Shown here: positions 1-33,201 of the stretch, piece after piece
Layout of the letters: each line of letters starts with the position of its first letter
Numbering within the stretch: the first letter of the stretch is position 1
Virus record (IMG/VR): IMGVR_UViG_2574180227_000019
DNA: 33,201 nucleotides
Reading direction: 5' to 3' (one strand)
From: a virus
Lineage: Duplodnaviria; Heunggongvirae; Uroviricota; Caudoviricetes
The notes under the pieces: model-generated
Seen by the model: the letters and a program-made list of their open reading frames with translations, nothing else
What the model was told of the DNA's origin: nothing
Databases searched by the model: none
Made by a program: the position numbers and the translations under genes

Positions 1-18
1 AACCTCGGTTTACGGGAA
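1..18. other. Partial gix-like inversion crossover site (18 of about 26 bp; remainder left of the window)
   Basis: aacctcggtttacgggaa is the reverse complement of ttcccgtaaaccgaggtt, the first 18 bp of the complete site at 1418..1443; the two copies are in inverted orientation. Confidence 0.55.
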
Positions 19-387: not shown

Positions 388-395
388 TTAAAGGA

Positions 396-418
396 AAAGG
401 GTGCGATAAGCACCCTTT
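396..418. terminator. Bidirectional hairpin between convergent fibre cassette and tail-fibre assembly gene
   Basis: Perfect 9 bp stem aaagggtgc / gcacccttt (396-404 / 410-418) with 5 nt loop gataa, lying between the stop at 387 (plus) and the stop at 422 (minus); T/A-rich flanks. Confidence 0.45.
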
Positions 419-421
419 ACG

Positions 422-964
422 TTATTCAGGCTTCTCCGGCCATTTAATGTCGTCAAATTCAGCTTTGTTTTTAATCGCTGGTAGTTCCATTTTTTTCACC
501 TGACTGATGTATGCCATCCATCGGGTAAGTGCGGCTCTGTCTTCATCACTGATGGTGCCCAGCTGTAATTCTGTTCTCCAGTCATTAATTTTTTCATATG
601 CCTGATTAAGATATGACTGGCGCATTGCTTCCAGTTTTCTTGCGTAGTTAACCGGAATACGGGAGATCACGCCATTATCAAACTTCCAGTTACCCGAAAT
701 ATCAGCACCTTCAGGGAGTTCGTCGACTTCAACCACAGAGAACCCCGCAGGATACAGCGCCGAAGCGTCCTGTGATATTGAGCAGATAATGCCGCTGTCA
801 GGTGTTATACAAAGTTTATATTTTTTTGTGAATAATGGCAGGGACTCGTAGAAATCCTTACCATCTTCACTCTGAAAATACTGTACATCATTACCATAGA
901 GGGTATTTTCCGGGTAATATCGTTTAACATTAATCAGTTGCATAAACATCACCATGTGAATCAA
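422..964 (-). CDS. Tail-fibre assembly protein (Tfa / Mu U-like)
   Basis: Translation has ...SEDGKDFYE...DASALYPAGFSVVEVDELPEGADISGNWKFDNGVISRI... and a C-terminal WPEKPE, resembling the Mu U / Tfa family as remembered. The track start is a TTG; a nearby in-frame ATG is equally plausible. Confidence 0.75.
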   Translation of the reverse strand: MIHMVMFMQLINVKRYYPENTLYGNDVQYFQSEDGKDFYESLPLFTKKYKLCITPDSGIICSISQDASALYPAGFSVVEVDELPEGADISGNWKFDNGVISRIPVNYARKLEAMRQSYLNQAYEKINDWRTELQLGTISDEDRAALTRWMAYISQVKKMELPAIKNKAEFDDIKWPEKPE

Positions 965-1063
965 TGATAAAAACAGGAATAATACTATCGCTATATACGG
1001 ACAGGGGTTGTCTGAGATAACGCATATATCAGGCGCTGCCTGCCGTACGCCATGAGCCGTTAA

Positions 1064-2017
1064 TTAAATACTTGCAGCGGATACCCAATTCCCATTAATA
1101 CAATATTGTATCTGTCTGTAATAAACACGGTCATCACCACCACGCATTTCCCAGTCTCCGTCAGTCTTAAAACCGGTAATCACATTTCCTGATGACAGGG
1201 AGTAATTATATTCCAGTACGCCGCTTAATGCCTGCGCTCCCAGTCTTACCCCTGTAACATAACGCTGATTGGCCGTTGATTCCGGCATTCCTGACGTAAT
1301 GTTTATATCCCGCGTCCCGTCGAAAGGAACACCATTAATATTTCTTGGGGTGGCGAGTCTGTTTGCTGCCACGGCGGTTCCCCCCGATGGCAGGGCATCA
1401 GCGGCCTTATTTACCGTTTCCCGTAAACCGAGGTTATCGATAAAGGCACTTCTGTTTGCAATGTCAGAACCATTTGACGCAACCTTAAGATATGACCCAT
1501 CACTTTGTTCGCGACTATATGAACCAATATCTGCGCCGCTTTTCAGATAACGCCGATCACCTTCTTCTTTACTGTAAACCCCAAGGTTGGTACGGGCCGC
1601 AACTTTATCGGGTACGTCAGACAAATTTTTGCTTTTTTCAAGCGCACCAACATCTGTTGGTGAAAGCTTATCTTTTGTCGCCAGAGTCCCCAGCCCAAGA
1701 GCTTTTCTGGCATTCGCCTGAGCACCAGCTCCCGCATCCTCGATTTCTTTCAGGTTGTTTTTACGTAAAAAAGCATTGGCCGTAATAATGGCCTTGATTG
1801 CCAGTGTAAGCTGATTCAGCTTCATTTTATCTGGTTGAATTTTTCCTTCAGTCAAAATCGCAAGCAATTCTGCCTGAATGATATTAAGCCAGTCCTGCCC
1901 GATATGGCTGATACCTTTATTACCGTCGCCTTCCGTAAACCACTTAACTTCAGTACCCTGCGATGGAGCCAGCGCTGGCATCTCTGTCGTACCGGTATTG
2001 TTATCCACGAAATACAT
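1064..2017 (-). CDS. Tail-fibre protein (constant N-terminal part about 194 aa plus variable C-terminal part Sv)
   Basis: 317 aa ORF, ATG at 2015-2017 overlapping the upstream stop (TAATG). A gix-like site sits inside the gene at the constant/variable junction; the C-terminal part is homologous to the plus-strand cassette at 1..387. Confidence 0.8.
   Translation of the reverse strand: MYFVDNNTGTTEMPALAPSQGTEVKWFTEGDGNKGISHIGQDWLNIIQAELLAILTEGKIQPDKMKLNQLTLAIKAIITANAFLRKNNLKEIEDAGAGAQANARKALGLGTLATKDKLSPTDVGALEKSKNLSDVPDKVAARTNLGVYSKEEGDRRYLKSGADIGSYSREQSDGSYLKVASNGSDIANRSAFIDNLGLRETVNKAADALPSGGTAVAANRLATPRNINGVPFDGTRDINITSGMPESTANQRYVTGVRLGAQALSGVLEYNYSLSSGNVITGFKTDGDWEMRGGDDRVYYRQIQYCINGNWVSAASI
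1418..1443. other. gix-like crossover site for a Gin/Hin/Cin-family serine invertase
   Basis: ttcccgtaaacc-ga-ggttatcgataa: 26 bp, two 12 bp imperfect inverted half-sites around a central GA. Closely resembles the gix site as I recall it (TTCCTGTAAACCGAGGTTTTGGATAA). Inverted partner at 1..18. Confidence 0.6.
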
Positions 2018-2574
2018 TATTCCGTCTCCTCATGCGACTTTTCGTAAATGTATAAAAACGTCTGCCAGGCCGGTTTATACCGGTTTAAAATGCATTCCAG
2101 CGCACCACCTTCATATATCCGCAGAGGCGTCAGAATGTGATCGAGCACATGCATGTGACGATACCCAACCTCGCTTTTTACGGTCACAATACTGATCCAC
2201 TGCGATTCCGGTGATGGCTGAATATCAATCACATAGCCAAATTCAGCCGCAAACCGGATATAAAACTCGCGGTTCAGTGACGGCTTCATACGGTATTTAT
2301 TCGCCGCGTATCGCTGGCGCTCCTGCAACGTTGCTCCTGCCATATCACATTCAGGCAACCCCAGATAACGCTCCCAGTCCTCCAGTAACATCCGGGATGT
2401 TTCCGGAAAGCGCTCCGAAAGTAACTGATTAGCCGTCCAGGATACACGCTCGGTGGCGTGACTTAGCCCAAGACATAAGGCTGACAACACGGATTCAGGA
2501 CGTTTATCCCATGCCAGGCCATCGGGTAGGAGCTGCAACAATGCGCGCTGATGAGCTGCAAGCGTCAGAGCCAT
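2017..2574 (-). CDS. Tail/baseplate protein (Mu gp48-like)
   Basis: 185 aa ORF immediately upstream of the tail fibre, ATG at 2572-2574, overlaps its neighbours; position matches Mu gp48. Call is by synteny. Confidence 0.55.
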   Translation of the reverse strand: MALTLAAHQRALLQLLPDGLAWDKRPESVLSALCLGLSHATERVSWTANQLLSERFPETSRMLLEDWERYLGLPECDMAGATLQERQRYAANKYRMKPSLNREFYIRFAAEFGYVIDIQPSPESQWISIVTVKSEVGYRHMHVLDHILTPLRIYEGGALECILNRYKPAWQTFLYIYEKSHEETE

Positions 2575-5811: not shown

Positions 5812-7216
5812 TGATCACCTCCACAGTACTTCCCCCCGGCACAAAAAGCGGGTCTGAAATGTTGTTACGACGCACAAAATGTTGCCAGCGGGTGCTGTTT
5901 CCTGTTTCACGGTACAGGGTTACCAGTGCAGGTTCTGTCGCCCGGACGGATACCTGTACAGCCCCCGGCAGGGAGACCGCCCTGACCGTAAGATCTTCTG
6001 TCAACGCCAGGCGGGCATCCCTGAGAGTCAGGGCTGTGGAGGTATACCCCAGCGCAGACAAATCCATGACCTGTAATTCAAGCGCATCACTCAAATCACG
6101 GTTGATACGCTCAACATCTGCGGCACTTTCCAGCCAGACAAGACCGGCTGACTTCGTGTTATTACTTGTCCGGGCTGTTTCAAGACTGATTACCTGATCC
6201 AGCAATTTTCCCACTGTCTGAGCCTGAGACACCACGGCTGCACTCTGCATCACTGCCCTGAGAAGCCGGATATTTTGTTGAGCTGGCGGGGTAAGCCCAA
6301 TCAGACGCTGTGGATCATCCTGTTCTGTCAGCGCATAACGCAGGGAGGATAAGGTTCTGTAGAGCTGAGGAAGTCCCTGTTCAAGGGTGCTCTGCATCAC
6401 CACATCCAGACTCCCTGCGGGCAATTCGCCTCCACTGCCTCTGGTGTAAACCGTACCGCCATTCCCCCCGGAAGCACCGGTTACGGTACTGCCGGTATTC
6501 TTCCGGGTAAGGGAGAGCGCAGGGATCGTGGGTAATGCCGTCAGGGTGACAAACATACCCGCCAGTGATTCCGCCATTCGCTGCGGACTTGTGAGCAATG
6601 CGGTAACGTTACCTTTAAGCGCCGTAAACGTGGCCGTAAAGGCACTGATATCCTGCACAATCCCCATCCCGGAAACGGAATTTTCCAGCGCCTCAATTTT
6701 GTCACTGATGGTTTCAGCCATTGCCTGCACATCATGCATACCATCGGAAATGACGGTCCAGCCACTTGCCAGCGTACCAAACATGCTGTTCAGGGCTGCA
6801 CCACTTCTGGCCTCCAGAAGTGCAGCCGTATCCTGGCTGGCCGTTGGCGCTGTTTCATCACTGACCGGAGACACATTAATTGTGAATTCAACAATGCGCT
6901 GTTCATCGGCGCTGTAACGGCTTTCAAAGCTGTTTATCATCACGTTTAAAGTGCCATATTCCGGGTGCATAAGTTCACCCGGCCCGGGGGCGCGAAGGGC
7001 ATCCCGAAGACGGCTTCGTTGCGTGTGAACATCCTCTCCCATCACCAGTACGGTGAAGGTGTATTCCGGCAGTTTTGGCCCCAGATCATCTGCACCGCCC
7101 CGTTCCTGTAACGGATATTCCCGGCGAACGATATTACGCCCACCGCGTTCACGCTGTTCGCGAAATACCAGGAATGGCACACCGCGAAACGACCCCTTGC
7201 CGTCACCAGTGGACAT
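5801..7216 (-). CDS. DNA circularisation protein N-like (Mu gp43-like)
   Basis: Start re-chosen at the ATG at 7214-7216 (MSTGDGKGSFRGVPFLVF...) with GGAGGT upstream, overlapping the tape-measure stop (ATGTCCACTGGTGA); the track's N-terminal extension is rejected. Confidence 0.6.
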   Translation of the reverse strand: MSTGDGKGSFRGVPFLVFREQRERGGRNIVRREYPLQERGGADDLGPKLPEYTFTVLVMGEDVHTQRSRLRDALRAPGPGELMHPEYGTLNVMINSFESRYSADEQRIVEFTINVSPVSDETAPTASQDTAALLEARSGAALNSMFGTLASGWTVISDGMHDVQAMAETISDKIEALENSVSGMGIVQDISAFTATFTALKGNVTALLTSPQRMAESLAGMFVTLTALPTIPALSLTRKNTGSTVTGASGGNGGTVYTRGSGGELPAGSLDVVMQSTLEQGLPQLYRTLSSLRYALTEQDDPQRLIGLTPPAQQNIRLLRAVMQSAAVVSQAQTVGKLLDQVISLETARTSNNTKSAGLVWLESAADVERINRDLSDALELQVMDLSALGYTSTALTLRDARLALTEDLTVRAVSLPGAVQVSVRATEPALVTLYRETGNSTRWQHFVRRNNISDPLFVPGGSTVEVISEQ

Positions 7217-23477: not shown

Positions 23478-23903
23478 TCAGAAAAGTGGCGGTTGCGTTC
23501 TTGCCAGATGCAGACGGCGCTGTTCACGTATGACGGTATAAATCTGGGTTTCTGACATCCGGTAATGGCGGCGAAGGGATTCAATTTTCTCGCCCCGGTC
23601 CCAGCGCGAAAATATCTCATTGTTTCGCAGCTCGGCAAAGAGAGATTCCCCGACCGGCAGGTAATAACCCCGTCCGCCCATATAGGCTGCCTGAGCCGCA
23701 GCCACCTTGCGTGCCAGTTTACCGGCCAGTACCGGCTCAATCCCCTGACGCTGAAGTTCTGCGCCGGTGACTTCAACCAGTTCTGACAGGGTCCGCGGCC
23801 AGTTCTTTTTGAGAACATCATCAGGGATGTCATCAAGGCGGTCGATAAGGGCGTGCAGTTGCTCACTGTCACCACCAAACATGCTCATCTGAGTTTCTGC
23901 CAT
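23478..23903 (-). CDS. Mor/C-family transcriptional activator (middle/late gene activator)
   Basis: 141 aa; C-terminal ...YYLPVGESLFAELRNNEIFSRWDRGEKIESLRRHYRMSETQIYTVIREQRR... resembles the Mu Mor/C family as remembered; GGAGG Shine-Dalgarno; lies just downstream of an intrinsic terminator and upstream of the endolysin. Confidence 0.7.
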   Translation of the reverse strand: MAETQMSMFGGDSEQLHALIDRLDDIPDDVLKKNWPRTLSELVEVTGAELQRQGIEPVLAGKLARKVAAAQAAYMGGRGYYLPVGESLFAELRNNEIFSRWDRGEKIESLRRHYRMSETQIYTVIREQRRLHLARTQPPLF

Positions 23904-23944: not shown

Positions 23945-23968
23945 AAATCCCGCGTTGTGGCGGGATTT
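23945..23968 (-). terminator. Rho-independent terminator between GemA and the Mor/C-family gene
   Basis: On the minus-strand transcript: aaaucccgc-cacaac-gcgggauuu (9 bp stem, 6 nt loop) followed by uuauuuuaaa. Confidence 0.5.
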
Positions 23969-23972
23969 GGGG

Positions 23973-24482
23973 TTAACGGGGAAGTGATTTTTCATACTGC
24001 CTGCAAACGGCGTCATACCCCATCAGCGTGCGTTCGGGCATTCCCATCGCGGCCAGCATTTTGCGGCGGTGCCATCGCTTGAGACGCTCCAGCACATCTG
24101 AGGCCAGGGCGGGGTGTTGCTCCAGCCACTGCCAGTTTGCCACACCTTCGCCGCCGTTCTGCGCGGCCGTCTGCGATTTCACCCAGCGGTTAAGAGCGGT
24201 TTCCGCACCATCAGAGATAAAGCCCTGCCGGTGCATCACCTTCCAGATGGCGCGAATTTTAGCGGTCACCGTACCCGGTTTTAAGGCCCGGTTAACCGGG
24301 TTCTGACGCACTTTAAAACCGCGTTTTTTGAAAACATCCAGCACGCGGGACAACTCATCCGGTGACATATCCCGGCAGCTGGTTTTGCCGGTGGCTGCCA
24401 GCAGCACGAATGTATAAGTCTCATCATCCAGGGCAAGCTCGCGCTTTGCCACATGAATGGCGGATATCAGTTTTCCTCTCAT
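23973..24482 (-). CDS. GemA-like protein (Mu gp16 family)
   Basis: 169 aa ORF directly upstream of the Mor/C gene; sequence and position consistent with Mu GemA as remembered. Confidence 0.6.
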   Translation of the reverse strand: MRGKLISAIHVAKRELALDDETYTFVLLAATGKTSCRDMSPDELSRVLDVFKKRGFKVRQNPVNRALKPGTVTAKIRAIWKVMHRQGFISDGAETALNRWVKSQTAAQNGGEGVANWQWLEQHPALASDVLERLKRWHRRKMLAAMGMPERTLMGYDAVCRQYEKSLPR

Positions 24483-24775
24483 ACCGTATTTACCTTTTTA
24501 CGGACATGGAAAGCCTTTTCTGCCTCATCCCACCGGGCATGGTGTGTTGGCGGAATAATCATTATGTGCCAGCCATCTCTGGTTGTTATCCGGCAGAAAA
24601 ATTCACCGCTATATAACACAATGGCCTGCTGAATGAGCGCATCAGCCGCCCGTTCAACCGGATGTCTTTTATCAAAAAAGCAGATGATTTTTCGACATAA
24701 CCACCGGGTAATAACAAATGCGCCGAAAAAGGATGTGATATATAAGCACCAGAACAACAGAGAACTATTGTCCAT
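24479..24775 (-). CDS. Small membrane protein, unknown function
   Basis: 98 aa, strong AAGGAG Shine-Dalgarno, N-terminal hydrophobic helix (LLFWCLYITSFFGAFVI); ATGA-coupled to GemA. Confidence 0.5.
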   Translation of the reverse strand: MDNSSLLFWCLYITSFFGAFVITRWLCRKIICFFDKRHPVERAADALIQQAIVLYSGEFFCRITTRDGWHIMIIPPTHHARWDEAEKAFHVRKKVNTV

Positions 24776-24955
24776 TATCTTTCTCCTTATTCACTCTTCT
24801 GCGGCATTCGGCACAGTCATCAGGGCTTTCAAATGTATCCGGCTCGCGATTATGAGCCAGATATAACCACCGTCCACATATACTGATATTTTCGCCTGTT
24901 TTAAAAAAAATGATGCTTCCTGGCCATTAGTGGCCGCGCCCATCCAGCGGGTAGA

Positions 24956-25291
24956 CTATTCATTTGCTTTATCCTCCATACTGGAGAGAATCATATGTAT
25001 TAATGTCGGGCGTGGAGATATACGCATTTCATTAAGCGTCTGAAGGGCAGCAACAGCTGCCTGTTTATCGGTGCCTTTGGCAATTTCAGCAAGAGAATGC
25101 ACAATCCATAACGGGCTTAACGCTACGGCTGAATGCAGAATCATGTCATCCATAATAATTTCTGGCATATCCCGTTTGTCACATTCTTTATCCATAAAAG
25201 AAACAATTTTTTCTGCATCTTCCGGTTTCATGCCTCCGGCGATGAGAATTTTACGATATTCATAAGACGATCTTAATTCAATACTCATCAT
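24956..25291 (-). CDS. Hypothetical early protein
   Basis: 111 aa ORF in the AT-richer early block; no recognisable motif. Confidence 0.4.
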   Translation of the reverse strand: MMSIELRSSYEYRKILIAGGMKPEDAEKIVSFMDKECDKRDMPEIIMDDMILHSAVALSPLWIVHSLAEIAKGTDKQAAVAALQTLNEMRISPRPTLIHMILSSMEDKANE

Positions 25292-25303
25292 TCACCTGCC
25301 TGT

Positions 25304-25672
25304 TTAATCAGTTTCCAGTGCTTTGCTACGGGCAACAGCCTCACACTCAAAAAATACCGACTCCGGCACACGTTCTTTTAATTCACGAACAAGGAAGTTA
25401 TTAACGCGCTCGTGACATCTTATATTTCTTTCCTTTTCCTCCTGGCGTAATACAGCAAGGCGGTATTCAACAGTCCGGCGTTGTTTCTGAAAGACAGCCA
25501 GTGCTTTTCTGGCAGAGTTACGCCATGTATCATCACCACAGGGTGCGTATTCAAGCTGAAATTTAATCTCTTCAATGGTTTCTTTTATTTTTGCCAGCAA
25601 GCTAAGACAGTCGCTGATTGTCTTCAGTTTTTCATTATCAATATAACTTCTCACGCATTCACCTCCCGTCAT
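25304..25672 (-). CDS. Hypothetical early protein (coiled-coil)
   Basis: The track ORF runs to 25696 (GTG); the ATG at 25670-25672 forms an ATGA overlap with the upstream stop, and an in-frame GTG at 25654 has GGAGGT upstream. Start uncertain. Confidence 0.4.
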   Translation of the reverse strand: MTGGECVRSYIDNEKLKTISDCLSLLAKIKETIEEIKFQLEYAPCGDDTWRNSARKALAVFQKQRRTVEYRLAVLRQEEKERNIRCHERVNNFLVRELKERVPESVFFECEAVARSKALETD

Positions 25673-25980
25673 TCCGGTAAAGCTGAAATATGGCACCAGT
25701 GCGTCACCTGTCCGTCCTCATCTTCAAGGCAGGCTCCGGTTTCTTCATCAACAAAAAAGCCTTCATACCCCATATGGCCGATGCGCAGCTCCTGACGGTG
25801 ACCATACTGAACAATCAGCACGACAGCCTCCATATCAGGTGGGAAAGCATCATTCAGTGAATGCCAGGGATAACCGCGTAAATCCCCGAAATAAACACCG
25901 GTCAGCGTTCCGCCACAGAGCGGCATTCCGGCGGCACACACAAGAGGTTCATCTGATTCAACAAATAAGGTCGTTATCAT
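25669..25980 (-). CDS. Hypothetical early protein (possibly DUF551-like)
   Basis: 103 aa, ATGA-coupled to the upstream gene; the DUF551 resemblance is a weak impression from memory. Confidence 0.4.
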   Translation of the reverse strand: MITTLFVESDEPLVCAAGMPLCGGTLTGVYFGDLRGYPWHSLNDAFPPDMEAVVLIVQYGHRQELRIGHMGYEGFFVDEETGACLEDEDGQVTHWCHISALPE

Positions 25981-26528
25981 GGCGTTAACTCCCGTAATAC
26001 AGCGTCCTCGGCAGTCCGGCGACGGTAATAAACTGCGTGAGCAGAATGTTCAGATATTCCAAACTTTTCGCCAATTTCCCGGAATGACAGACGGCGTGGG
26101 TAATCGGAATCACGCAGCGCACGTATAAGACGTACATCATAATCAGATATGCGCGTGCCGGGGCGTAACTCTCCGCACTTTGTTAATCCAGCACCAATCA
26201 TTCCTGCCCGACATCTGACAGAATCTTTATTACGTCCGAGATATTCTCCCATTTGCTGGCAGGTCATTGTTCTGGCATTTTTTCGAATAAACTTATCTTC
26301 ATCAGGTGTAAATCTTGGGTGTTTATATTTCAGTAACTCCGGGTATGAACTGCGCAATACACCAGTCCGGTTATATACAGCCCAGACAGTTCTTTTTATT
26401 CTGGCAGCAATATCCTTAACCGGGGTGGATGAATAAAGCGCAATCAGCAGCGCATCTTCTTCAGGTGTCCACGGACGGACATGAGCGGGGGCGCGACCTT
26501 TTAGTCCCATGGGTTGTAATTTCATCAT
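25977..26528 (-). CDS. Putative DNA-binding protein with tandem helix-turn-helix repeats (Myb/SANT-like and sigma region-4-like)
   Basis: 183 aa, GGGGGTGA Shine-Dalgarno. Two repeats of the pattern (W/F)TPEED...x20-25 (RPWTPEEDALLIALY...IAARIKRTVWAVYNR and PRFTPDEDKFIRKNARTMTCQQMGEYLGRN), then ...LSFREIGEKFGISEHSAHAVYYRR. Confidence 0.45.
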   Translation of the reverse strand: MMKLQPMGLKGRAPAHVRPWTPEEDALLIALYSSTPVKDIAARIKRTVWAVYNRTGVLRSSYPELLKYKHPRFTPDEDKFIRKNARTMTCQQMGEYLGRNKDSVRCRAGMIGAGLTKCGELRPGTRISDYDVRLIRALRDSDYPRRLSFREIGEKFGISEHSAHAVYYRRRTAEDAVLRELTP

Positions 26529-26531
26529 GCA

Positions 26532-27047
26532 TCACCCCCTGACTCGCTTTTCAGCAGCATAAAACTCATCAGACAGTATTTCGGTCATTTTCTGTTTTGC
26601 GGGTTTTACGCCGCACTGAAGGTAAATCACATCGTCAACGCAGAACCACTTCACAGGGCCAAACAGGATTGCCGAGAAATCAATACCCAGCCAGAACAAC
26701 AGCGCATCGGTTCTGGCATACGTGACGGGCGAATATTCACGCCACAGACTGTACAGTTCATCAGAGGCAACACGCAGGGTTTTAGGGATACGTGATGTGC
26801 GCGGTGTGCAGCTCCAGCCATTCGACGCAGTCGGTTTTCGCCATAAGTCGCGATGAAAAGGATATTTGTCCTCCGTAAAACGCAGTCCCTTAAAGCAAAA
26901 TCCACTGATACCGGATACAAATACCGACCGGCACGCAACATTCAGCACGGCCTCAAGGCGTTTTGCCTCATCCTTAACTTTCTGGCAGTCCTGCTGGTAT
27001 TTTTGCCACGCAGCCAGCGCGGAAGGGTTTGATGTTTTAAAGAACAT
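26532..27047 (-). CDS. Hypothetical early protein
   Basis: 171 aa, GGAGGTGG Shine-Dalgarno, tightly coupled to its neighbours. Confidence 0.45.
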   Translation of the reverse strand: MFFKTSNPSALAAWQKYQQDCQKVKDEAKRLEAVLNVACRSVFVSGISGFCFKGLRFTEDKYPFHRDLWRKPTASNGWSCTPRTSRIPKTLRVASDELYSLWREYSPVTYARTDALLFWLGIDFSAILFGPVKWFCVDDVIYLQCGVKPAKQKMTEILSDEFYAAEKRVRG

Positions 27048-27580
27048 TACGCCACCTCCGCAGATATCCCGGCAGGCGCAGCCGTCCGGTCAACAATCAG
27101 GTAACGCAGAACATGTTCGGTGATATTCCAGCCGCTTAAACCGCAGATAATGACACCCAGGCGAATGTCGATATACGCCATCACAAACTGGGGCACGCCT
27201 TCTTTCATGGCCTGCTCATCAACTTCAGCCACCACATAAACGGTTTCACAGGTCAGAACGCCCTGAGCAAATTCCCACGCCATCGACGGAATATCATGCC
27301 CTTCAATCCACGGCAGGGATTTTCTGAAGCTGCACCACTGAACATCATCAGCCGCAGACTCCTGGCTGCATTTGCGACGAACCGGCTGCACCGGGCGGGG
27401 ACGCGGAATATCATAAAAACCGTTACGGTCCGTCAGCACGCCTGCATCAACCGCATCACGCAGAAAATAAACCATGGAGGATAGCGGCATATTCATTTTT
27501 TCTGCCAGAGAACGACTGGTCAGACGGCCAGAAAAACGCAGCCAGTTTTTAACCCCTTCAAGCACTTTTGCATCAATCAT
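27047..27580 (-). CDS. Hypothetical early protein with N-terminal winged-helix-like segment
   Basis: 177 aa, GGAGGA Shine-Dalgarno; N-terminal ...TSRSLAEKMNMPLSSMVYFLRDAVDAGVL... looks HTH-like. Confidence 0.45.
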   Translation of the reverse strand: MIDAKVLEGVKNWLRFSGRLTSRSLAEKMNMPLSSMVYFLRDAVDAGVLTDRNGFYDIPRPRPVQPVRRKCSQESAADDVQWCSFRKSLPWIEGHDIPSMAWEFAQGVLTCETVYVVAEVDEQAMKEGVPQFVMAYIDIRLGVIICGLSGWNITEHVLRYLIVDRTAAPAGISAEVA

Positions 27581-27583
27581 GAA

Positions 27584-28126
27584 TTATTCCTCCGTCAGCG
27601 CCACATATTCAGAATGTTTAATCTCCTGGCATTCTTCAGGAATACACCCTTTTATTTCCCTGCCATAAGCGCCTACTTTAAACACCACGCACAGGGCATC
27701 ACGGGAGAGCGACGGGGTCCACCAGGAGTCCGTGTTAAACATGGAGGGGATTCTCATTACCCCCAGCTTTTCACAGAGCCAGACAAGGAAATCAGGACGC
27801 TTTCTTAACTCGCGTTCAGCGGCTTCAATCATTGCGGCAATCGCCGCTCCTTCAGGGCATGACTCATCAGGTCTGGCTATAAAGCACTGTCCACCACCGA
27901 TAAAAGCCACATCATCGCGCTTACACCAGCCCGCAGGCAGAGCACCGGAAAAATAAAACTCACTGATTACGTCCATGGCGAACGGCTTTAAGCGCAATCC
28001 GGTAGCGCCTGTATTTTTCAGTAACGCCCGAAGAATACTGTTGCGTAGCGGTAAAACAGTCTGTTGATATTTGGTGAAATATTTATTTGTCTGCACACAG
28101 TCTAATTTGAAATAAAAATATGCCAT
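27584..28126 (-). CDS. Hypothetical early protein
   Basis: 180 aa, AGGA Shine-Dalgarno; no recognisable motif. Confidence 0.45.
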   Translation of the reverse strand: MAYFYFKLDCVQTNKYFTKYQQTVLPLRNSILRALLKNTGATGLRLKPFAMDVISEFYFSGALPAGWCKRDDVAFIGGGQCFIARPDESCPEGAAIAAMIEAAERELRKRPDFLVWLCEKLGVMRIPSMFNTDSWWTPSLSRDALCVVFKVGAYGREIKGCIPEECQEIKHSEYVALTEE

Positions 28127-28223
28127 ATTTCCTGTTCCTTATTTTCAGTTTACAGGCGCAGGCAGTCCCCTGACGCGAGCGCCATAATTAAAATGAAGTG
28201 ATATTTAAAGATTTAATGCGGTG

Positions 28224-28754
28224 TTATTTGTTCAGTCCGGCGTCCTGTTCAAAAGGCTCGACATAAAAACTTTCAGCGCCTTTATTCACCTTAATACCGG
28301 CAATGTCTTTCACCGCATCCGGCTCCGCCAGGACAGCTTGCTTATTCACTTCCTCTTTCGTGCGGATGAAGCGCTCAAGGCCCATACGGCGCAGCATTTC
28401 AATCACGCCTTCCACATCACGGCTGACGCTGCATGATGGCGTTCCCAGCCGCCATGACACCGTTCCGGTGGTCAGATTGGCTGTTTTGGTTTCACCGCCG
28501 TTCGTCAGCTCATTGCGGTTGGTTTTACACCAGTCCTGAATCCCTTTAAAAAGCACTTTGATTTCTTTTTTAAGGTTTTCAATCTGCGGCGTATAACGGG
28601 CGGTAATTTCTGCCACTTCGTCATTCATCGCTGTTTCCAGGCGCAGCGCCTCACGCTGCATATCCCCAAAGCGTCGGATATCGCGGCTGACTTCTTCGCG
28701 GGTCTGTGGTGCGGCCTCGGCTGCGGCCTTTAATTTTGTAACGCGTTTAGCCAT
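28224..28754 (-). CDS. gam: Host-nuclease inhibitor Gam (Mu Gam family)
   Basis: 176 aa; ...FGDMQREALRLETAMNDEVAEITARY...WCKTNRNELTNGGETKTANLTTGTVSWRLG...GLERFIRTKEEVNKQAVLAEP...PFEQDAGL closely parallels Mu Gam as remembered; AAGGA Shine-Dalgarno. Confidence 0.85.
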   Translation of the reverse strand: MAKRVTKLKAAAEAAPQTREEVSRDIRRFGDMQREALRLETAMNDEVAEITARYTPQIENLKKEIKVLFKGIQDWCKTNRNELTNGGETKTANLTTGTVSWRLGTPSCSVSRDVEGVIEMLRRMGLERFIRTKEEVNKQAVLAEPDAVKDIAGIKVNKGAESFYVEPFEQDAGLNK

Positions 28755-28765
28755 TTTGTTTTTCC

Positions 28766-29059
28766 TTATTGCAGTGTGCCTGATGCTTTATGCACGCGGT
28801 GGTGTTTAATGATGGCATCCGCTCCAAAATCCTGTGCAGATGCCTGAAATTCCGCTGAGAGGAAATGAATAATTGCAGGACTGTGATACTGGAGAATACT
28901 TGCATAAACATCACAGAGTGACGTCGGGCTGTTCTCCGTATCACGTTCTGTTTTCACATCCACACCAATCTTTTCATGCACTTCAACACAGTCATTGCCT
29001 GCCAGCTTTTCGTCATGCGAAACATTCTCAAATTCAAAAATAACGCGTACTTTGCTCAT
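28766..29059 (-). CDS. Small early protein, paralogue B of a tandem pair
   Basis: Start re-chosen at the ATG at 29057-29059 (MSKVRVIFEFENVSHDEK...); the N-terminus parallels the adjacent gene. Confidence 0.45.
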   Translation of the reverse strand: MSKVRVIFEFENVSHDEKLAGNDCVEVHEKIGVDVKTERDTENSPTSLCDVYASILQYHSPAIIHFLSAEFQASAQDFGADAIIKHHRVHKASGTLQ

Positions 29060-29063
29060 GGAA

Positions 29064-29336
29064 TTACCCCTGCTGATTAAATTCATTACCTTTAATAACC
29101 CCGGAACTCATGTTCATATCTTTCATGAGCGCTCTGGCTTTCATTGCCACAAGTTCAGCAAAGTCTCTGCTTTCCGCGAGCATAACCACCCCAAAAATCA
29201 TGGCGGGTCCATCACCTTTCTGCTTTATCCCGGTTGAACGTATGTCCAGACTTACCCCCATGTGCACTGTTTCATCAGCGTTTTTATGGATAACGTGCTC
29301 CTTGTATTCGAAAATAATGCGTACAACTTTACTCAT
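29064..29336 (-). CDS. Small early protein, paralogue A of a tandem pair
   Basis: 90 aa (MSKVVRIIFEYKEHVIHKNADE...), GAGGA Shine-Dalgarno, ATGA-coupled to the upstream gene. Confidence 0.45.
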   Translation of the reverse strand: MSKVVRIIFEYKEHVIHKNADETVHMGVSLDIRSTGIKQKGDGPAMIFGVVMLAESRDFAELVAMKARALMKDMNMSSGVIKGNEFNQQG

Positions 29337-29614
29337 CCTCTGGTCCTCGTTCTGTTTGGATAACTGACCCGGCGTCTGACCTCACGGCAGAACCGAATCA
29401 TGGCATTAAAGGCTTCTTCCTCCGTCACCGCTTCCGGTATCCCCGGAACCAGTAACTGCTCCTGTTCATCACGTCCATGACGCGCCATAACCTCAATCAC
29501 ATGCCGTACTGTGGCAGGCTTTCCGGCAACTATCGGCAATGCACCTTCCGGCAGGACGTAACCAAACTCAATGAGACCGCTCGACCACGCCCACGCAATC
29601 AGATTTCGTTTCAT
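29333..29614 (-). CDS. Hypothetical early protein
   Basis: 93 aa with strong GGGAGGTG Shine-Dalgarno. Confidence 0.45.
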   Translation of the reverse strand: MKRNLIAWAWSSGLIEFGYVLPEGALPIVAGKPATVRHVIEVMARHGRDEQEQLLVPGIPEAVTEEEAFNAMIRFCREVRRRVSYPNRTRTRG

Positions 29615-29615
29615 C

Positions 29616-29870
29616 TCACACCTCCCAGTAAACCGTGCATCCGCTTATGCGGGTGGCCTTCACACGGCGGCGCAGGCCGTTGGTCTGTATGGTGATTTCA
29701 ATTTCACCGGTTCCCTGCACGTTGCCTACCGGCGGCGTGGTTTTCAGTGCAAAACGTTGTGGGTAGCGCTTACTGCGTTCCAGTACCGCACCGGCAAGTT
29801 CGGTCAGACGGCGCGCGCTGTTCAGGGAGTCGAATAAATTCATTTTGTTACCGCAGGATTGCATATTCAT
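29616..29870 (-). CDS. Hypothetical early protein
   Basis: Start chosen at the ATG at 29868-29870, preceded by GAGGTG; the track start at 29882 has no Shine-Dalgarno. Confidence 0.4.
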   Translation of the reverse strand: MNMQSCGNKMNLFDSLNSARRLTELAGAVLERSKRYPQRFALKTTPPVGNVQGTGEIEITIQTNGLRRRVKATRISGCTVYWEV

Positions 29871-29882
29871 ATAACACCTCAT

Positions 29883-30104
29883 TTAGCTGACTTGTTTCGC
29901 ACCAACAGAACGGCATATTCCGCTGTAAACTTCTGTCGCACCTTCGCGATCAAGTCCGGCAGATATCACCATTCGTGTGCGGTCATTAAATTCAAAAAGT
30001 AAATCGCCACATTCTTTATTTTCGGCCAGTGAAATCACCTTCACGTTATCGAAATTAACCAGGTAAAAGCGTCCGTAAATATCAGGAATATAAAATACCG
30101 CCAT
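29883..30104 (-). CDS. Hypothetical early protein at the Mu kil position (function not verified)
   Basis: First gene after B; ATG at 30102-30104 preceded by AGGTG (the track start at 30110 is GTG). Call is by synteny only. Confidence 0.4.
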   Translation of the reverse strand: MAVFYIPDIYGRFYLVNFDNVKVISLAENKECGDLLFEFNDRTRMVISAGLDREGATEVYSGICRSVGAKQVS

Positions 30105-30106
30105 AA

Positions 30107-31039
30107 TCACACCTGTGAGAGTAATTCAGGGTTGGTATAAACCTCTTTAAAGGCCGCATTAATATGTTTTTCTGTCAGCGCCGCGCCTTCACCACTGGCG
30201 GTGATCCATGCCTGGTTAAGCGTATGTGTCAGAACACGTAATGCTCCCGGTTTTTCAGCGATAGCCTGCATGACAGCCAGCTCGGCCTCACCACTGATAC
30301 CCCACGCCCTGGCAATAGCCAGCACATCCGCCTTTTTGGCCTTGCGAAGTTGTTTTGTACGGGCAAGACGGCTGAACAGGCGCGATAAATCATCAACGGC
30401 GCGGCGCCCCCCCTTAAACAGTCCGCGCGGGTTACCAATAAGCACCATCCCGATCCCCGTGGCGTCCTGGATTGCCCGGAGTTGCTCCAGACCGTCAATA
30501 CCAAGATGATCCGCCTCATCCACAATCACCAGTCCACGCGTTCCCATCAGGCGACGGCGGATGGCGCGGGATAACGCCCCTTTGTTCGCGCGGGTATAAT
30601 CAATCCCCAGCGCATCGGCCAGCTCCAGCAGACACTCCGTGACGCTGGAATGCGCGGGAGACAGGGTGATCATCCAGGTGTTTGGTTGCTCCTGGCAGTA
30701 ATTACGGGCGGTGGCCGTTTTACCCACCCCGGGCACGCCCACTATGACGTTAATACAGCCCATCAGGCGGACCGCCTGAAACAGCGCGCGCAGCTCCTGG
30801 ACTGTCTGCGTTTCCACAAACTGCGGCGGCTCGGGCAGTGCGCTTTGTTTATTCCAGTTCTCATACCAGGAACGCAGGGAAGCAGCCACAGCAGCGTTAT
30901 CGCCTTTATATTTTCCCTTACGGAAAGCCGATAATGTGCCATCGGAAATTCCCGCCTCTCTGGCGATGGCATACTGCGTCAGTACGCCGCCATCAATAAG
31001 TTCATCAATGGTCTTGATTACATCGTTAATATCAGTCAT
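30107..31039 (-). CDS. B: Transposition target-DNA activator B (MuB-like AAA+ ATPase)
   Basis: 310 aa, directly downstream of the transposase; Walker A GVPGVGKT, Walker B-like VIVDEADHL, N-terminal HTH-like segment. Confidence 0.85.
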   Translation of the reverse strand: MTDINDVIKTIDELIDGGVLTQYAIAREAGISDGTLSAFRKGKYKGDNAAVAASLRSWYENWNKQSALPEPPQFVETQTVQELRALFQAVRLMGCINVIVGVPGVGKTATARNYCQEQPNTWMITLSPAHSSVTECLLELADALGIDYTRANKGALSRAIRRRLMGTRGLVIVDEADHLGIDGLEQLRAIQDATGIGMVLIGNPRGLFKGGRRAVDDLSRLFSRLARTKQLRKAKKADVLAIARAWGISGEAELAVMQAIAEKPGALRVLTHTLNQAWITASGEGAALTEKHINAAFKEVYTNPELLSQV

Positions 31040-31077
31040 ATTATTAACCTCTCATTTGATACCTTGTTTAATCAAAT

Positions 31078-31107
31078 AACCTGAGTCGCCGCTCGGGTTA
31101 TTTTTTT
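31078..31107 (+). terminator. Terminator-like hairpin plus T7 tract in the A-B intergenic region, best oriented on the plus (antisense) strand
   Basis: aacctgag-tcgccg-ctcgggtt (8 bp stem, one G-U pair) followed by attttttt on the plus strand; on the minus-strand mRNA the same hairpin is followed by a weaker auuugauu. Confidence 0.35.
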
Positions 31108-31110: not shown

Positions 31111-33201
31111 TCAGGCCAGCGGGTCATTTTCTTTTAATTTCGCTTCCAGCAACTGCAATCCCCGCTGGAAATTACGCTCGTATTCTTCATCAGGTTCATC
31201 ATCAACGGCAGGTTGCTGAACGGCCACCGTATTACCCACCGGGCGGTAGATGTTTTCCAGCCATGGCTCCTGCGGCTTGTGCTCCAGCACGTTGACAACC
31301 TCATCCTCGGCATCACGGATTTTTTCCTCTGCGCGTTTACGCATACCTTTAAGGCGCTGCTGCTGTTTGTAGTATTCCGCGCTGACCGGGAAGGCTTCGC
31401 GTTTATTGCCGTCCCATACCGCCTCGCAAATCACGCTGCCATCCGGGCGACGTACGGTAATTCGTTCGGCATCATGAATGTCATAGCTGATAAGCACTTT
31501 GCGGCCATGTTCATCACGCAGCTCGGGCGCGTAGTAAATATTATTCAGCCAGCGTATTTCACAGCGTCTTACAGGGCGTTCCACCATCGGCCGGAACATG
31601 TCCCGCAATTCCACATCGGACAGCCATTCAATTTCCGTGTCCTCTTCTGCCAGGCGTTTTTTTCTGAACTCCGCCGGGCTGTAATGTTTACCGTTCGGCT
31701 TCATGGGTAATTCATCGTGCGGCCGGTTGTTGTACCACTCAACGCCGTCACGAATGGCATCAATCAGTTCAGACCAGGACGGTAAATCACGCATCGCTGA
31801 CTGCTGCCGGGCGTTCAGCCGCTTGCCCTGTTGCAGGGCAGTGAATGCCGAGCGTAAATCGCGGTTGGTTTTGCGTAACGTCTCGCGATCTGCACCTTTC
31901 CCGAAATAGGTGCGGTATTTACGGGCTATGCGCATCGGTAATGTGCGGTTAAGCCGTTCGATAATGCCCCGTCCCTGCGGATTACCGGCAATCCCGGTCG
32001 GGTGATTAATCCCCAGTCGCGGTAGTATCCCCACAATCTCCTTATCCAGGATGTCGGCGGTTTCCCCGGAGCCATTATCCGAGTAATACAGAAACGGTTT
32101 GCCGTGATGTCGAATACCGTGCTGTATGGCACCGGCTACGGCGAAAACATTTTCAGCCAGGTCAAGGCTCCAGCCCACCACAAAGCGTGTACCGCCATCG
32201 ATAACAAAGGTTACTTCCGGTGCAAATGGCCGCCCGTGAACCGGGTGCCTGCATTTCAGCTTCATGCCGTGACCGTCACCAATCCAGACATAGTTCACCG
32301 GCATTCTGGACCAGTCGCGGCGCGTGAATCCCTCAAGCTGGCGGTATTCACTGCCGGTCACCCGGCCTTTTTGTTTCACCACTTCCGGCAGTTTCTTCAT
32401 TGCGCGGCGAATGGTGTCATAAGACGGCATGATATCGAGCATATAAGGCTCATCAGCGTGCCGGTGCTGCCATTCAGCAACAAAATCCTCGTAAGCCTCG
32501 GTCATTGGTCGGCCGTTTGACTGGCGATACTGCGCCAGAAATTCGGGCAGCCAGTTAATATCTTCGGCTTTTATTTCCTGACGTTTACCCGGTGCCAGTA
32601 AAAGCAGGCGTTCAGCGGCGTTCTGTGCCTTGTTAAAGGCCGCAATCCAGCGTTTCAGCGTGATTTCACTCAACACGCGGCTGTTTCCCTTTTTGGCGTT
32701 CGCCGTCTCAACCATTGCCACTATGCGCTCGTCCAGTTGTGAGCGTGACAGGCGGTCAACGATAAAACGGATGGCTCTAGCGCAGCTGAAACCGGGTTGT
32801 TGCGCGAATTTCAGCACCTCGCTGACAATCGCGATTCGTGCCTCTGCCACCTGGCGCTGTTTTTCAGTCAGGGCATTGAGGCGTTCGACCATCAGTTGTG
32901 GTGAACCGCGATATGCCTCCACCGCATCAACCACGTCAGGTGAGCGTCTGGCCTTTGTCACCACCGGAACCGGTGATTCATCGACTTTTTGAGTCATCAG
33001 TTGCAGGGCGTAGCGTTCACGTAATGCCTGCTGCGTCACTTCAGGTAAACAGTCGATGCTGTATTCAGTTGCTTTAGAGCCTGAGCGACGACGGGAACAA
33101 CAGCTTTTCCCTTGTACGTAACGTTGTAATGCCTGGCGAATACCTTTTGTTGTAGCAGGCATTCCGGGCGCGCCAATCAGTTCTTTTGCAATGACATACA
33201 T
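31111..33201 (-). CDS. A: DDE transposase A (MuA-like); start at or just beyond the window edge
   Basis: 696 aa; N-terminus MYVIAKELIGAPGMPATTKGIRQA... parallels the MuA N-terminal DNA-binding domain as remembered; followed by the B gene as in Mu. The ATG falls on the last 3 nt of the window. Confidence 0.85.
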   Translation of the reverse strand: MYVIAKELIGAPGMPATTKGIRQALQRYVQGKSCCSRRRSGSKATEYSIDCLPEVTQQALRERYALQLMTQKVDESPVPVVTKARRSPDVVDAVEAYRGSPQLMVERLNALTEKQRQVAEARIAIVSEVLKFAQQPGFSCARAIRFIVDRLSRSQLDERIVAMVETANAKKGNSRVLSEITLKRWIAAFNKAQNAAERLLLLAPGKRQEIKAEDINWLPEFLAQYRQSNGRPMTEAYEDFVAEWQHRHADEPYMLDIMPSYDTIRRAMKKLPEVVKQKGRVTGSEYRQLEGFTRRDWSRMPVNYVWIGDGHGMKLKCRHPVHGRPFAPEVTFVIDGGTRFVVGWSLDLAENVFAVAGAIQHGIRHHGKPFLYYSDNGSGETADILDKEIVGILPRLGINHPTGIAGNPQGRGIIERLNRTLPMRIARKYRTYFGKGADRETLRKTNRDLRSAFTALQQGKRLNARQQSAMRDLPSWSELIDAIRDGVEWYNNRPHDELPMKPNGKHYSPAEFRKKRLAEEDTEIEWLSDVELRDMFRPMVERPVRRCEIRWLNNIYYAPELRDEHGRKVLISYDIHDAERITVRRPDGSVICEAVWDGNKREAFPVSAEYYKQQQRLKGMRKRAEEKIRDAEDEVVNVLEHKPQEPWLENIYRPVGNTVAVQQPAVDDEPDEEYERNFQRGLQLLEAKLKENDPLA

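What the first reader, a model, noticed from the sequence alone, without database searches (positions are those of the whole stretch)
24479..30104. AT-richer early accessory block of about 18 small genes with unknown function
Between B and GemA lie about 18 tightly coupled small genes (73-183 aa) with good Shine-Dalgarno sequences; only Gam is recognisable. The region looks visibly AT-richer than the structural module (not computed). This is the Mu semi-essential early position where host-takeover, anti-nuclease and anti-defence functions sit, so these are the most plausible carriers of any novel activity in the window. No known defence or anti-defence fold is identifiable by eye.
Basis: inference. 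Interest (0 to 1): 0.6.

Follow-up and report, generated by a model that had tools for sequence, protein, structure and literature searches.

The report
Mu-like prophage early accessory gene block
This is the ordinary "semi-essential early" gene block of a Mu-like (Sp18-type) prophage of E. coli: 15 small genes drawn from a cassette pool shared with other Mu-like phages, most still of unknown function, and none matching a known defence family.

Summary
The block is real, but it is ordinary. The window is an Sp18-type Mu-like E. coli prophage, and the same block occurs in 232 of 5,426 complete E. coli genomes. Between B and GemA lie 15 co-oriented, tightly packed genes, not 18. One of them (w14) is frameshifted here. 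The block has the lowest GC of any stretch of its size in the window: 47.8% against 56.1% for the structural module.

More than Gam can be recognised:
- w02 is Kil-like.
- w04 and w05 are tandem paralogues of Mu gp7.
- w08 is Mu gp11 and w09 is Mu gp12.
- w10 is a three-HTH relative of Mu gp9.
- w07 is a divergent DUF5420 protein.
- w03 matches the small ORF beside Gam in Pseudomonas phages DMS3 and D3112.

w01 and w11 were found only in Sp18-type relatives. w12 to w15 have relatives elsewhere, but none has a known function.

Sixty related loci show 44 different gene orders, so variable cargo exists: w03, w07 and w11–w15. No PADLOC, Pfam or NCBIfam hit points to a defence function.

Confident models of w07 and gp12 share a topology and have no close relative among solved structures.

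A conserved hairpin element follows gam.

Interest is low to moderate.

The parts
29883..30104 (-). w01, 73 aa (alternative GTG start at 30110). Function unknown. Starts 2 nt after the stop codon of B.
   Evidence: phrog_3375, E 1.8e-46. Present in 21/21 complete Sp18-type loci and 0/33 Mu-type loci. PGAP calls it a CDS.
29616..29870 (-). w02, a Kil-like protein (84 aa; possibly 75 aa from an internal Met).
   Evidence: phrog_2679 'Kil protein', E 7.8e-46, with a cross-hit to Mu Kil's phrog_2743; Mu Kil cross-hits phrog_2679 in return. BLASTP to Mu Kil: 33% over 39 aa. hhalign is weak: E 1.2e-3, probability 19%.
29333..29614 (-). w03, 93 aa. Homologue of DMS3-12 and of the small D3112 ORF labelled 'gam'. 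Variable cargo.
   Evidence: phrog_1518, E 8.5e-43. tblastn gives 43-50% identity to 65 Pseudomonas Mu-like phage records. In DMS3 the homologue lies directly after the true Gam, DMS3-11. Present in 10/21 Sp18-type loci.
29064..29336 (-). w04, 90 aa, Mu gp7 (E6) family, tandem paralogue 1.
   Evidence: phrog_4107. Clusters with w05 and Mu gp7. hhalign of the w04+w05 group against the Mu gp7 group: probability 96.7%, E 4.5e-10. Intact in the window; frameshifted in the RefSeq copy.
28766..29059 (-). w05, 97 aa, Mu gp7 (E6) family, tandem paralogue 2.
   Evidence: phrog_2230. BLASTP of w04 against w05: 38% over the N-terminal 39 aa, E 0.005. hhalign to the Mu gp7 group as above.
28224..28754 (-). 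w06, Gam, the DNA-end-binding host-nuclease inhibitor (176 aa).
   Evidence: Pfam Phage_Mu_Gam, E 2.6e-40. 55% identical to Mu Gam over its full length.
28127..28223 (-). Conserved non-coding spacer after gam: an AT-rich tract followed by an imperfect hairpin, GGCGC-TC-GCGTCAGGGGACTGC-CT-GCGCC (28155-28183).
   Evidence: Present after gam in Mu, in all Sp18-type loci and in the Kluyvera/Enterobacteriaceae loci L007/L009/L010, whichever gene follows. The hairpin is 67-77% identical where the gam CDS is 57-64%. There is one copy per contig in 70 viral contigs. No Rfam match.
27584..28126 (-). w07, 180 aa, a divergent DUF5420-family protein. Variable and allelic cargo.
27047..27580 (-). w08, homologue of Mu gp11 (177 aa). 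The N-terminal part looks like a winged HTH by eye; the C-terminal part is the Gp11_C domain.
   Evidence: 65% identical to Mu gp11. Pfam Gp11_C, E 6e-41. The N-terminal HTH is not significant in the PDB search: AsnC regulator, E 0.6.
26532..27047 (-). w09, homologue of Mu gp12 (E13) (171 aa).
25977..26528 (-). w10, 183 aa, a DNA-binding protein with three HTH units (two SANT/Myb-like, one AsnC-type). Relative of Mu gp9. Highly allelic.
   Evidence: phrog_323, E 1.3e-51, the same PHROG as Mu gp9. hhalign to the Mu gp9 group: 97.2%, E 3.3e-11. Sub-threshold Pfam HTH hits. PGAP names it SANT/Myb-like. Median 74% identity among relatives whose neighbouring genes are about 95% identical.
25669..25980 (-). 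w11, 103 aa, unknown function, variable cargo. Found only in Sp18-type phages.
   Evidence: phrog_6925. tblastn against phages finds only the two Mu-like inserts in Stx phage records. Present in 10/21 loci.
25304..25654 (-). w12, 116 aa (130 aa from the upstream GTG at 25696), unknown function. The rarest cargo.
   Evidence: phrog_6158. Present in 6/21 loci. 39-41% identical homologues in non-Mu phages Fraca, AsXd-1 and SaltyDalty. No Pfam domain on its homologues.
24956..25288 (-). w13, 110 aa, unknown function, variable cargo shared with Mu-type phages.
   Evidence: phrog_1988. Homologues in SfMu and Yersinia Mu-like phages. Present in 14/21 Sp18-type and 18/33 Mu-type loci. No PDB relative.
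24765..24963 (-). w14, a 65-aa Cys-rich ORF in relatives, frameshifted in the window by an extra base in the A8/T8 run at 24903-24910.
   Evidence: The intact form hits phrog_2358, E 4.7e-34. Present in 11/21 loci.
24479..24775 (-). w15, 98 aa, with a hydrophobic N-terminal segment (probably a membrane anchor, judged by eye). Variable cargo.
   Evidence: phrog_17269. Present in 13/21 loci, with alleles down to 49% identity. Sequence.
23973..24482 (-). GemA (gp16 family), the distal boundary of the block.
   Evidence: Pfam GemA, E 1.2e-29. 43% identical to Mu GemA.
23945..23968 (-). Intrinsic-terminator-like hairpin with a T-run, 5 nt after the GemA stop. Probable end of the early operon.
   Evidence: 9-pair stem, then TTATTTT.

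Best explanation
The block is the semi-essential early (SEE) region of an Sp18-type Mu-like transposable prophage of E. coli. It is the distal part of the early operon.

How it most likely works. On induction, the block would be transcribed with A and B from the early promoter, which lies beyond the window end. Transcription would stop at the hairpin after GemA. Most genes are translated through their own Shine-Dalgarno sites or by coupling to the gene upstream.

What the products are taken to do:
- Gam binds DNA ends and protects phage DNA from RecBCD-type nucleases.
- The Kil-like protein blocks host division or morphogenesis.
- w10, and perhaps gp11, are DNA-binding proteins.
- The remaining small proteins are non-essential modulators of the host or of phage replication.

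The genes come from a pool of cassettes that enterobacterial Mu-like phages exchange by recombination. This explains both the low GC and the many different gene orders.

Shown here: identity, gene structure, homologies, mosaicism, composition. Inferred: co-transcription, early timing, and every function other than family membership.
For: Identity. The block is about 100% identical to E. coli SW070917 and about 94% identical to O157:H7 and other strains, in 232/5426 genomes. It is annotated as a 'Mu-like phage' insert in two Stx-phage records. Sp18 is described as an intact Mu-like prophage in PMC2669165.

Framing genes. MuB_C plus AAA in B, and GemA and Mor family hits.

Counterparts in Mu:
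- Gam 55%, gp11 65% and gp12 54% identity.
- gp7 family, hhalign 96.7%.
- gp9 to w10, hhalign 97.2%.
- Reciprocal Kil PHROG cross-hits.

Operon structure. Single strand, gaps of -11 to +15 nt, Shine-Dalgarno cores. Terminator-like hairpin after GemA. No excess of internal promoter-like sites: 8 found against 9.2 expected.

Mosaicism. 44 gene orders in 60 complete loci, with cassettes shared between Sp18-type and Mu-type phages.

Composition. Lowest-GC stretch of the window.
Against: No transcription or phenotype data exist for this block. The early promoter is not in the window. The Kil assignment rests on PHROG labels and a weak C-terminal similarity (hhalign probability 19%). Eight of the 15 proteins have no Mu counterpart and no functional clue at all. 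The terminator is only a pattern match.
Confidence: 0.88

Rival explanations
1. Counter-defence island. One or more of the variable cassettes (w03, w07, w11-w15) would be dedicated inhibitors of host anti-phage systems such as restriction, CRISPR or abortive infection. They would be expressed first after induction or infection, as Gam is against RecBCD.
For: These genes sit in an early-operon position beside a proven anti-nuclease. They show presence/absence and allelic variation among phages that are otherwise about 95% identical. w12 is shared with unrelated phages. w03 is linked to Gam in Pseudomonas phages. They have low GC, are small, and have no enzymatic domain.
Against: There is no similarity to any characterised anti-defence protein in Pfam, PHROG labels or the PDB. 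The 'host nuclease inhibitor' label on w03's family looks like annotation carried over from the adjacent Gam and has no experiment behind it that I could find. Variability is equally expected for host-takeover genes or neutral cargo. No anti-defence HMM library was available, so this was not properly tested.
Confidence: 0.25
2. Lysogen-benefit genes (morons, superinfection exclusion or defence). Some of these genes, for example the membrane-anchored w15 or the Cys-rich w14, would be expressed from the prophage to protect or alter the host.
For: w15 has a hydrophobic N-terminus. One relative (E. coli 2015C-3121) carries an opposite-strand gene at this end of the block, so morons can land here.
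Against: In the window every gene is co-oriented inside the repressed early operon. Promoter-like sites are not enriched. There are no PADLOC hits. w14 is frameshifted here.
Confidence: 0.07
3. Some of the small ORFs are not genes but chance ORFs in an AT-rich spacer.
For: w14 is interrupted in the window. Several ORFs lack a clear Shine-Dalgarno core: w01, w05, w10, w13.
Against: Every ORF hits a PHROG family at E <= 1e-32. Each is conserved as a protein in other loci, some at 23-60% identity. The ORFs tile the strand without gaps. PGAP calls all of them.
Confidence: 0.03

Closest known systems
Semi-essential early (SEE) region of Escherichia phage Mu (genes kil/gp5 to gp15, AF083977 4315-8127)
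   Same: The position between B and gemA, the single strand and tight packing, and the low GC (48.4% in Mu) are the same. It has Gam, gp11 and gp12 orthologues, gp7-family and gp9-family relatives, a Kil-like gene, and the same conserved spacer with hairpin after gam.
   Different: The window has 15 genes against 11 in Mu. It has no counterparts of Mu gp6, gp8, gp13, gp14 or Mu_54. The gp7 gene is duplicated. The gp9 relative is twice as long and sits after gp12 instead of before gam. w01, w03, w07 and w11-w15 are extra. Only the gam-gp11-gp12 stretch aligns at DNA level, at about 69%.
Sp18, the Mu-like prophage of E. coli O157:H7 Sakai, and its relatives in EHEC genomes
   Same: It is the same phage type. 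The block aligns over 88-100% of its length at about 94% identity in O157:H7, O111 and other strains, with the same gene order. Sp18 is described as intact and Mu-like (PMC2669165).
   Different: The window carries a particular cassette combination (w03+w04+w07+w11+w12+w13+w14+w15) and a distinct w10 allele, about 70-74% identical to the common one. Many relatives lack w11 and w12 or carry other cassettes (f36, Mu13, Mu14).
Early accessory regions of Pseudomonas transposable phages (DMS3, D3112, JBD series)
   Same: The layout is the same: B, then about 12 small genes including Gam, then GemA and a Mor/C-type activator. A w03 homologue (DMS3-12) is present.
   Different: Apart from Gam, w03 and GemA, no gene families were seen to be shared. 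In DMS3 the w03 homologue directly follows gam; here it lies two genes upstream of it.
Pfam DUF5420 / Mu gp12 (PF26885) proteins
   Same: w07 belongs to the DUF5420 sequence neighbourhood, and w09 is a gp12 orthologue. Both models have the same order of strands and helices. They share the N-terminal [FY]FK motif and a C-terminal EI-x3-[EQ]-[FY]-x-A motif.
   Different: w07 itself scores below the DUF5420 threshold (13.1 against 26 bits). The link between the two families is only E 9.5e-4 with 22% probability in hhalign. It was not checked by superposing the models.

Membership tests
Mu-type semi-essential early region | Lies between transposition gene B and gemA, on the same strand as A and B | tested here: met
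   B at 30107-31039 (MuB_C, E 4.6e-25) and GemA at 23973-24482 (E 1.2e-29), with all intervening ORFs on the minus strand.
Mu-type semi-essential early region | Contains gam and kil | tested here: met
   Gam: Pfam E 2.6e-40 and 55% identity to Mu Gam. Kil: PHROG 'Kil' family at E 7.8e-46 with reciprocal cross-hits to Mu Kil's PHROG, but only weak direct similarity. The Kil part is therefore less secure.
Mu-type semi-essential early region | Dispensable for plaque formation but improves growth | not testable with these tools
   Needs deletion mutants of an inducible lysogen.
Mu-type semi-essential early region | Transcribed as part of the early operon from Pe | tested here: inconclusive
   The tight spacing, the lack of enrichment for internal promoter-like sites and the terminator-like hairpin after GemA are all consistent with this. 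Pe lies outside the window and no RNA data were available.
Phage_Mu_Gam (PF07352) | Full-length match above the Pfam gathering score | tested here: met
   138.2 bits against a cut-off of 28.3, covering profile positions 1-149 of 149.
Mu gp11 family (Gp11_C, PF25754) | C-terminal domain match above the gathering score | tested here: met
   w08: 139.1 bits against a cut-off of 27; 65% identity to Mu gp11.
DUF5420 (PF17457) | Match above the Pfam gathering score | tested here: not met
   w07 scores 13.1 bits against a cut-off of 26. However, 19 of 28 aligned family members match (best 9.3e-28), and the close E. coli allele is annotated DUF5420 by PGAP. w07 is a divergent relative, not a member by the threshold.
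SANT/Myb-like DNA-binding domain | Match above the Pfam gathering score | tested here: not met
   w10: Myb_DNA-binding 19.7 bits against 24.4; HTH_AsnC-type 20.4 against 27. PGAP names the protein SANT/Myb-like. phrog_323 at E 1.3e-51 and the hhalign link to Mu gp9 support an HTH-repeat DNA binder.
Known anti-phage defence systems (PADLOC-DB 2.0) | Any protein matching a defence-system model | tested here: not met
   No family at E <= 0.01 for any of the 15 proteins. Only chance-level hits at 0.03.
Known anti-defence proteins (Acr, Ocr/Ard, Tad, Gad and others) | Sequence or fold similarity to a characterised inhibitor | tested here: inconclusive

The most novel reading that the evidence does not exclude
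The part of the block just downstream of gam may be a conserved functional unit that nobody has described. It would comprise the sequence-conserved hairpin element after gam, gp11, and two distant paralogues flanking gp11 (DUF5420-like w07 and gp12). These paralogues share a fold with no close solved relative and have a near-invariant C-terminal 'EIKxSEFxALTEE' tail. Such a unit could act on DNA ends or transposition intermediates together with Gam, or could neutralise a host nuclease or defence system by a new mechanism.
Probability: 0.1. Interest if true: 0.6.

Novelty: new member of a known kind. Interest (0 to 1): 0.25.

Why it matters
For genome annotation, most of this block can now be labelled by its relation to Mu genes instead of as "hypothetical". 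The variable cassettes (w03, w07, w11-w15) are pinpointed for anyone screening Mu-like phages for host-takeover or counter-defence genes. The block itself is common and was sequenced long ago, so it does not open a new question.

Two small leads could be followed cheaply. One is the conserved element after gam. The other is the possible DUF5420/gp12 superfamily, which has no solved structure. Mu genetics is well developed, so both are testable.

Tried and rejected
Searches that gave nothing useful:
- Pfam and NCBIfam gave nothing for most of the proteins.
- PADLOC gave nothing on all 15 proteins.
- PDB sequence and profile searches for w07, w13, w10, w08 and w03 gave only chance-level hits.
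- Foldseek against BFVD for w07 found only uncharacterised phage proteins.
- Literature searches for DUF5420 and for Mu early or anti-defence genes found nothing specific.

Ideas tested and set aside or left open:
- A first hhalign of w07 against gp12 with shallow alignments was negative. With deeper alignments it gave a co-linear but weak match, so I treat the paralogy as probable, not shown.
- Two apparent hhalign links, w02-Mu8 and w01-w03, are artefacts. They come from fused ORFs in my greedy ORF calling or from a deletion-fusion variant in one relative.
- BLASTP shows no direct similarity for w10 against Mu gp9 or for w05 against Mu gp7. Only the profile comparisons link them.

For the element after gam, I rejected the following:
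- An Rfam family.
- An intrinsic terminator, because there is no U-run.
- A stable RNA fold (z = -0.83).
- Base-pair covariation.
- A conserved micro-ORF. The ATG is absent in L007, L009 and L010, and the frame differs between Mu and the window (sequences).
- A sigma-70 promoter.
- Extra copies of the AT-rich motif in the Mu operator region.

By eye, w11 resembles DUF551 ('VTHW..P' near the C-terminus). Pfam does not support this, so it stays an unconfirmed impression.

Full report
WHAT THE WINDOW IS

All long ORFs lie on the minus strand. From the high end the order is a Mu-type transposase A (31111-33201, running off the window), then B (30107-31039; MuB_C plus AAA), then the block in question. 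After the block come GemA (23973-24482), a Mor/C-family activator (23478-23903), a lysozyme, and the head and tail genes.

The block 24479-30104 is about 100% identical to E. coli SW070917 (NZ_CM129862.1). It is about 94% identical to O157:H7, O111 and many other strains. It occurs in 232 of 5,426 complete E. coli genomes, and in 213 of them over at least 80% of its length. Two Stx-phage records carry it as an 'inserted Mu-like phage'. This is the Sp18 type of Mu-like prophage. Sp18 of O157 Sakai is described as intact and Mu-like in PMC2669165.

CHECKING THE OBSERVATION

Between B and GemA there are 15 genes, not about 18. My ORF chain and NCBI's PGAP annotation of the near-identical RefSeq record agree on this.

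The genes are tightly packed. Gaps run from -11 to +15 nt, except for one 97-nt spacer after gam. Eleven of the 15 have a GGAG/GAGG/AGGA-type Shine-Dalgarno core.

The AT-richness is real. The block has 47.8% GC against 56.1% for the structural module. It is the lowest-GC 5.6-kb stretch of the whole window, and GC3 is 46% against 58%. Mu's own equivalent region has 48.4% GC.

The window differs from the RefSeq copy by two homopolymer indels. One makes w04 intact here and frameshifted in RefSeq. The other, A8 at 24903-24910, breaks w14 here. Six relatives have seven bases at that site and an intact 65-aa ORF.

GENE BY GENE

Genes are listed in transcription order.
- w01 (29883-30104): phrog_3375, function unknown. 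It is present in all Sp18-type loci and absent from Mu-type loci.
- w02 (29616-29870): a PHROG 'Kil' family at E 7.8e-46, with reciprocal cross-hits to Mu Kil's PHROG. Direct similarity is weak.
- w03 (29333-29614): phrog_1518, labelled 'host nuclease inhibitor'. tblastn shows it is the homologue of DMS3-12 and of a small ORF labelled gam in D3112 (43-50% identity). In DMS3 this ORF lies immediately after the true Gam, DMS3-11. The label therefore looks like annotation carry-over and not evidence.
- w04 and w05 (29064-29336 and 28766-29059): tandem paralogues belonging to the Mu gp7 (E6) family. hhalign gives 96.7%, E 4.5e-10.
- w06 (28224-28754): Gam (Pfam E 2.6e-40; 55% identical to Mu Gam).
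- w07 (27584-28126): a divergent DUF5420 protein. It scores below the Pfam threshold itself, but 19 of 28 family members match. The family is small, with 26 representatives among 1.84 billion proteins.
- w08: Mu gp11 (65% identity; Gp11_C at E 6e-41).
- w09: Mu gp12 (54% identity).
- w10 (25977-26528): three HTH units. It is in the same PHROG as Mu gp9 and linked to it by hhalign (97.2%, E 3.3e-11). It is present in all Sp18-type loci but strongly allelic, with median identity 74% where neighbouring genes are about 95%.
- w11 to w15 (24479-25980): no functional clue.
  - w11 is confined to Sp18-type phages.
  - w12 also occurs in unrelated phages such as Fraca and AsXd-1.
  - w13 also occurs in SfMu, Yersinia Mu-like phages and many Mu-type contigs.
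  - w14 is Cys-rich and broken here.
  - w15 has a hydrophobic N-terminus.

No protein matched a PADLOC defence model or an NCBIfam family.

VARIABLE CARGO

I fetched 103 Gam-anchored loci, called ORFs and clustered them. The 60 loci that contain both B and GemA show 44 different gene orders.

In 21 complete Sp18-type loci, w01, gp7-family genes, Gam, gp11, gp12 and w10 are always present, and the Kil-like gene is present in 20. The variable genes are w03 (10/21), w07 (18/21), w11 (10/21), w12 (6/21), w13 (14/21), w14 (11/21) and w15 (13/21).

Cassettes cross between the two phage types. w07 and w13 occur in Mu-type contigs, and Mu gp8, gp13 and gp14 occur in some Sp18-type ones. Annotated E. 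coli relatives confirm insertions, deletions and replacements, mainly between w10 and GemA.

Equally, every cassette is already a catalogued phage family.

STRUCTURES

AlphaFold2 gave confident models for gp12/w09 (pLDDT 92.5) and w07 (pLDDT 93.6). Their secondary-structure elements come in the same order: strand, long helix, hairpin, two helices, hairpin, strand, C-terminal helix. w07 has one extra hairpin.

With deeper alignments hhalign aligns the two families co-linearly over 155 columns (E 9.5e-4, probability 22%). This includes the N-terminal [FY]FK motif and the C-terminal EI...[EQ][FY].A motif. I consider them probable distant paralogues flanking gp11, but I could not superpose the models.

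A NON-CODING ELEMENT

The 97-nt spacer after gam holds an AT-rich tract and an imperfect hairpin, GGCGC-TC-GCGTCAGGGGACTGC-CT-GCGCC (28155-28183). The same element follows gam in Mu (about 6360-6400), in all Sp18-type loci, and in Kluyvera/Enterobacteriaceae relatives whose Gam is only 52-57% identical. It is there whichever gene comes next.

The hairpin is 67-77% identical where the gam CDS is 57-64%. It occurs once per contig in 70 viral contigs. It is not annotated in either Mu record.

It is not a terminator, because it has no U-run. It has no Rfam match, shows no covariation, and does not fold unusually well as RNA. Its role is open. It could be an mRNA processing or stability site, a protein-binding site, or a recombination joint at the boundary between cassettes.

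EXPLANATION AND VERDICT

The best-supported reading is that this is the ordinary semi-essential early region of an Sp18-type Mu-like prophage. It would be co-transcribed with A and B and end at the terminator-like hairpin after GemA. It carries Gam, a Kil-like protein, DNA-binding proteins and a mosaic set of small accessory proteins.

That some variable cassettes are counter-defence genes is plausible from their position and variability. Nothing found here supports it directly.

The finding is a correct description of a known kind of region, with an over-count of genes and an under-count of what can be recognised. Interest is low to moderate. The two small leads are the possible DUF5420/gp12 superfamily and the conserved element after gam.

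Noticed in passing
window 28127-28223 (hairpin 28155-28183), minus strand: A conserved non-coding element follows gam: an AT-rich tract and then the hairpin GGCGC..GCGTCAGGGGAYTGC..GCGCC. It is kept in Mu, in Sp18-type phages and in Kluyvera-type Mu-like phages, whichever gene comes next. It is not annotated in the Mu records, is not a terminator and has no Rfam match.
   Followed up: partly
window 24903-24910 (w14) and about 29255 (w04): Two homopolymer indels separate the window from the otherwise identical RefSeq record. A8 against A7 breaks the 65-aa w14 ORF in the window. C5 against C4 leaves w04 intact here but frameshifted in RefSeq. These are probably assembly errors in one or both copies.
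   Followed up: yes
window 23478-23903 and 23945-23968: There is only one Mor/C-family gene between GemA and the lysozyme. It is closer to Mu C (39%) than to Mor (27%), and it lies beyond a strong terminator-like hairpin placed 5 nt after GemA. Mu itself has mor inside the early operon and a separate C gene. The regulatory cascade may be one step shorter here.
   Followed up: no
window 23737-23751, minus strand, inside the Mor/C gene: A one-mismatch copy (GCGTCAGGGGATTGA) of the 15-nt loop motif of the post-gam hairpin. By my own rough estimate, about 0.005 such near-exact copies are expected by chance in the window. The shuffle control covers only matches with up to 3 mismatches (9 found, 2.3 expected). 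It has no hairpin context.
   Followed up: partly
window 1-2500: A second low-GC stretch (45-47%) covers a 317-aa ORF with no Pfam match that precedes the tail-fibre assembly gene (probably the tail fibre, by position only), a lambda-gpK-type tail-fibre assembly protein (422-964), and the end of a Mu Gp48-like gene. This is the usual exchangeable host-range module.
   Followed up: partly
window 31074-31103: A 13-pair AT-rich hairpin followed by a T-run lies in the 71-nt gap between A and B. The pattern scan reports it on the plus strand.
   Followed up: no
window 25977-26528 (w10) compared with relatives: w10 is present in every Sp18-type locus but in at least four alleles only 69-74% identical to one another, while flanking genes are 91-95% identical. 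This suggests allelic exchange or diversifying selection on a DNA-binding protein.
   Followed up: partly
L005 (E. coli 2015C-3121, NZ_CP027340.1), locus 2340-2579: This relative carries an opposite-strand 79-aa gene next to GemA, in place of w13-w15. It looks like a possible moron inserted in the same hotspot.
   Followed up: no
w07 family alignment A7 (window 27584-27622 encodes the motif): The extreme C-terminus 'EIK[HK]SE[FY][VI]A[LI]TEE-COOH' is nearly invariant across family members that share only about 20% identity overall. A sub-group has 'ITYG[QT]FYD' instead.
   Followed up: partly
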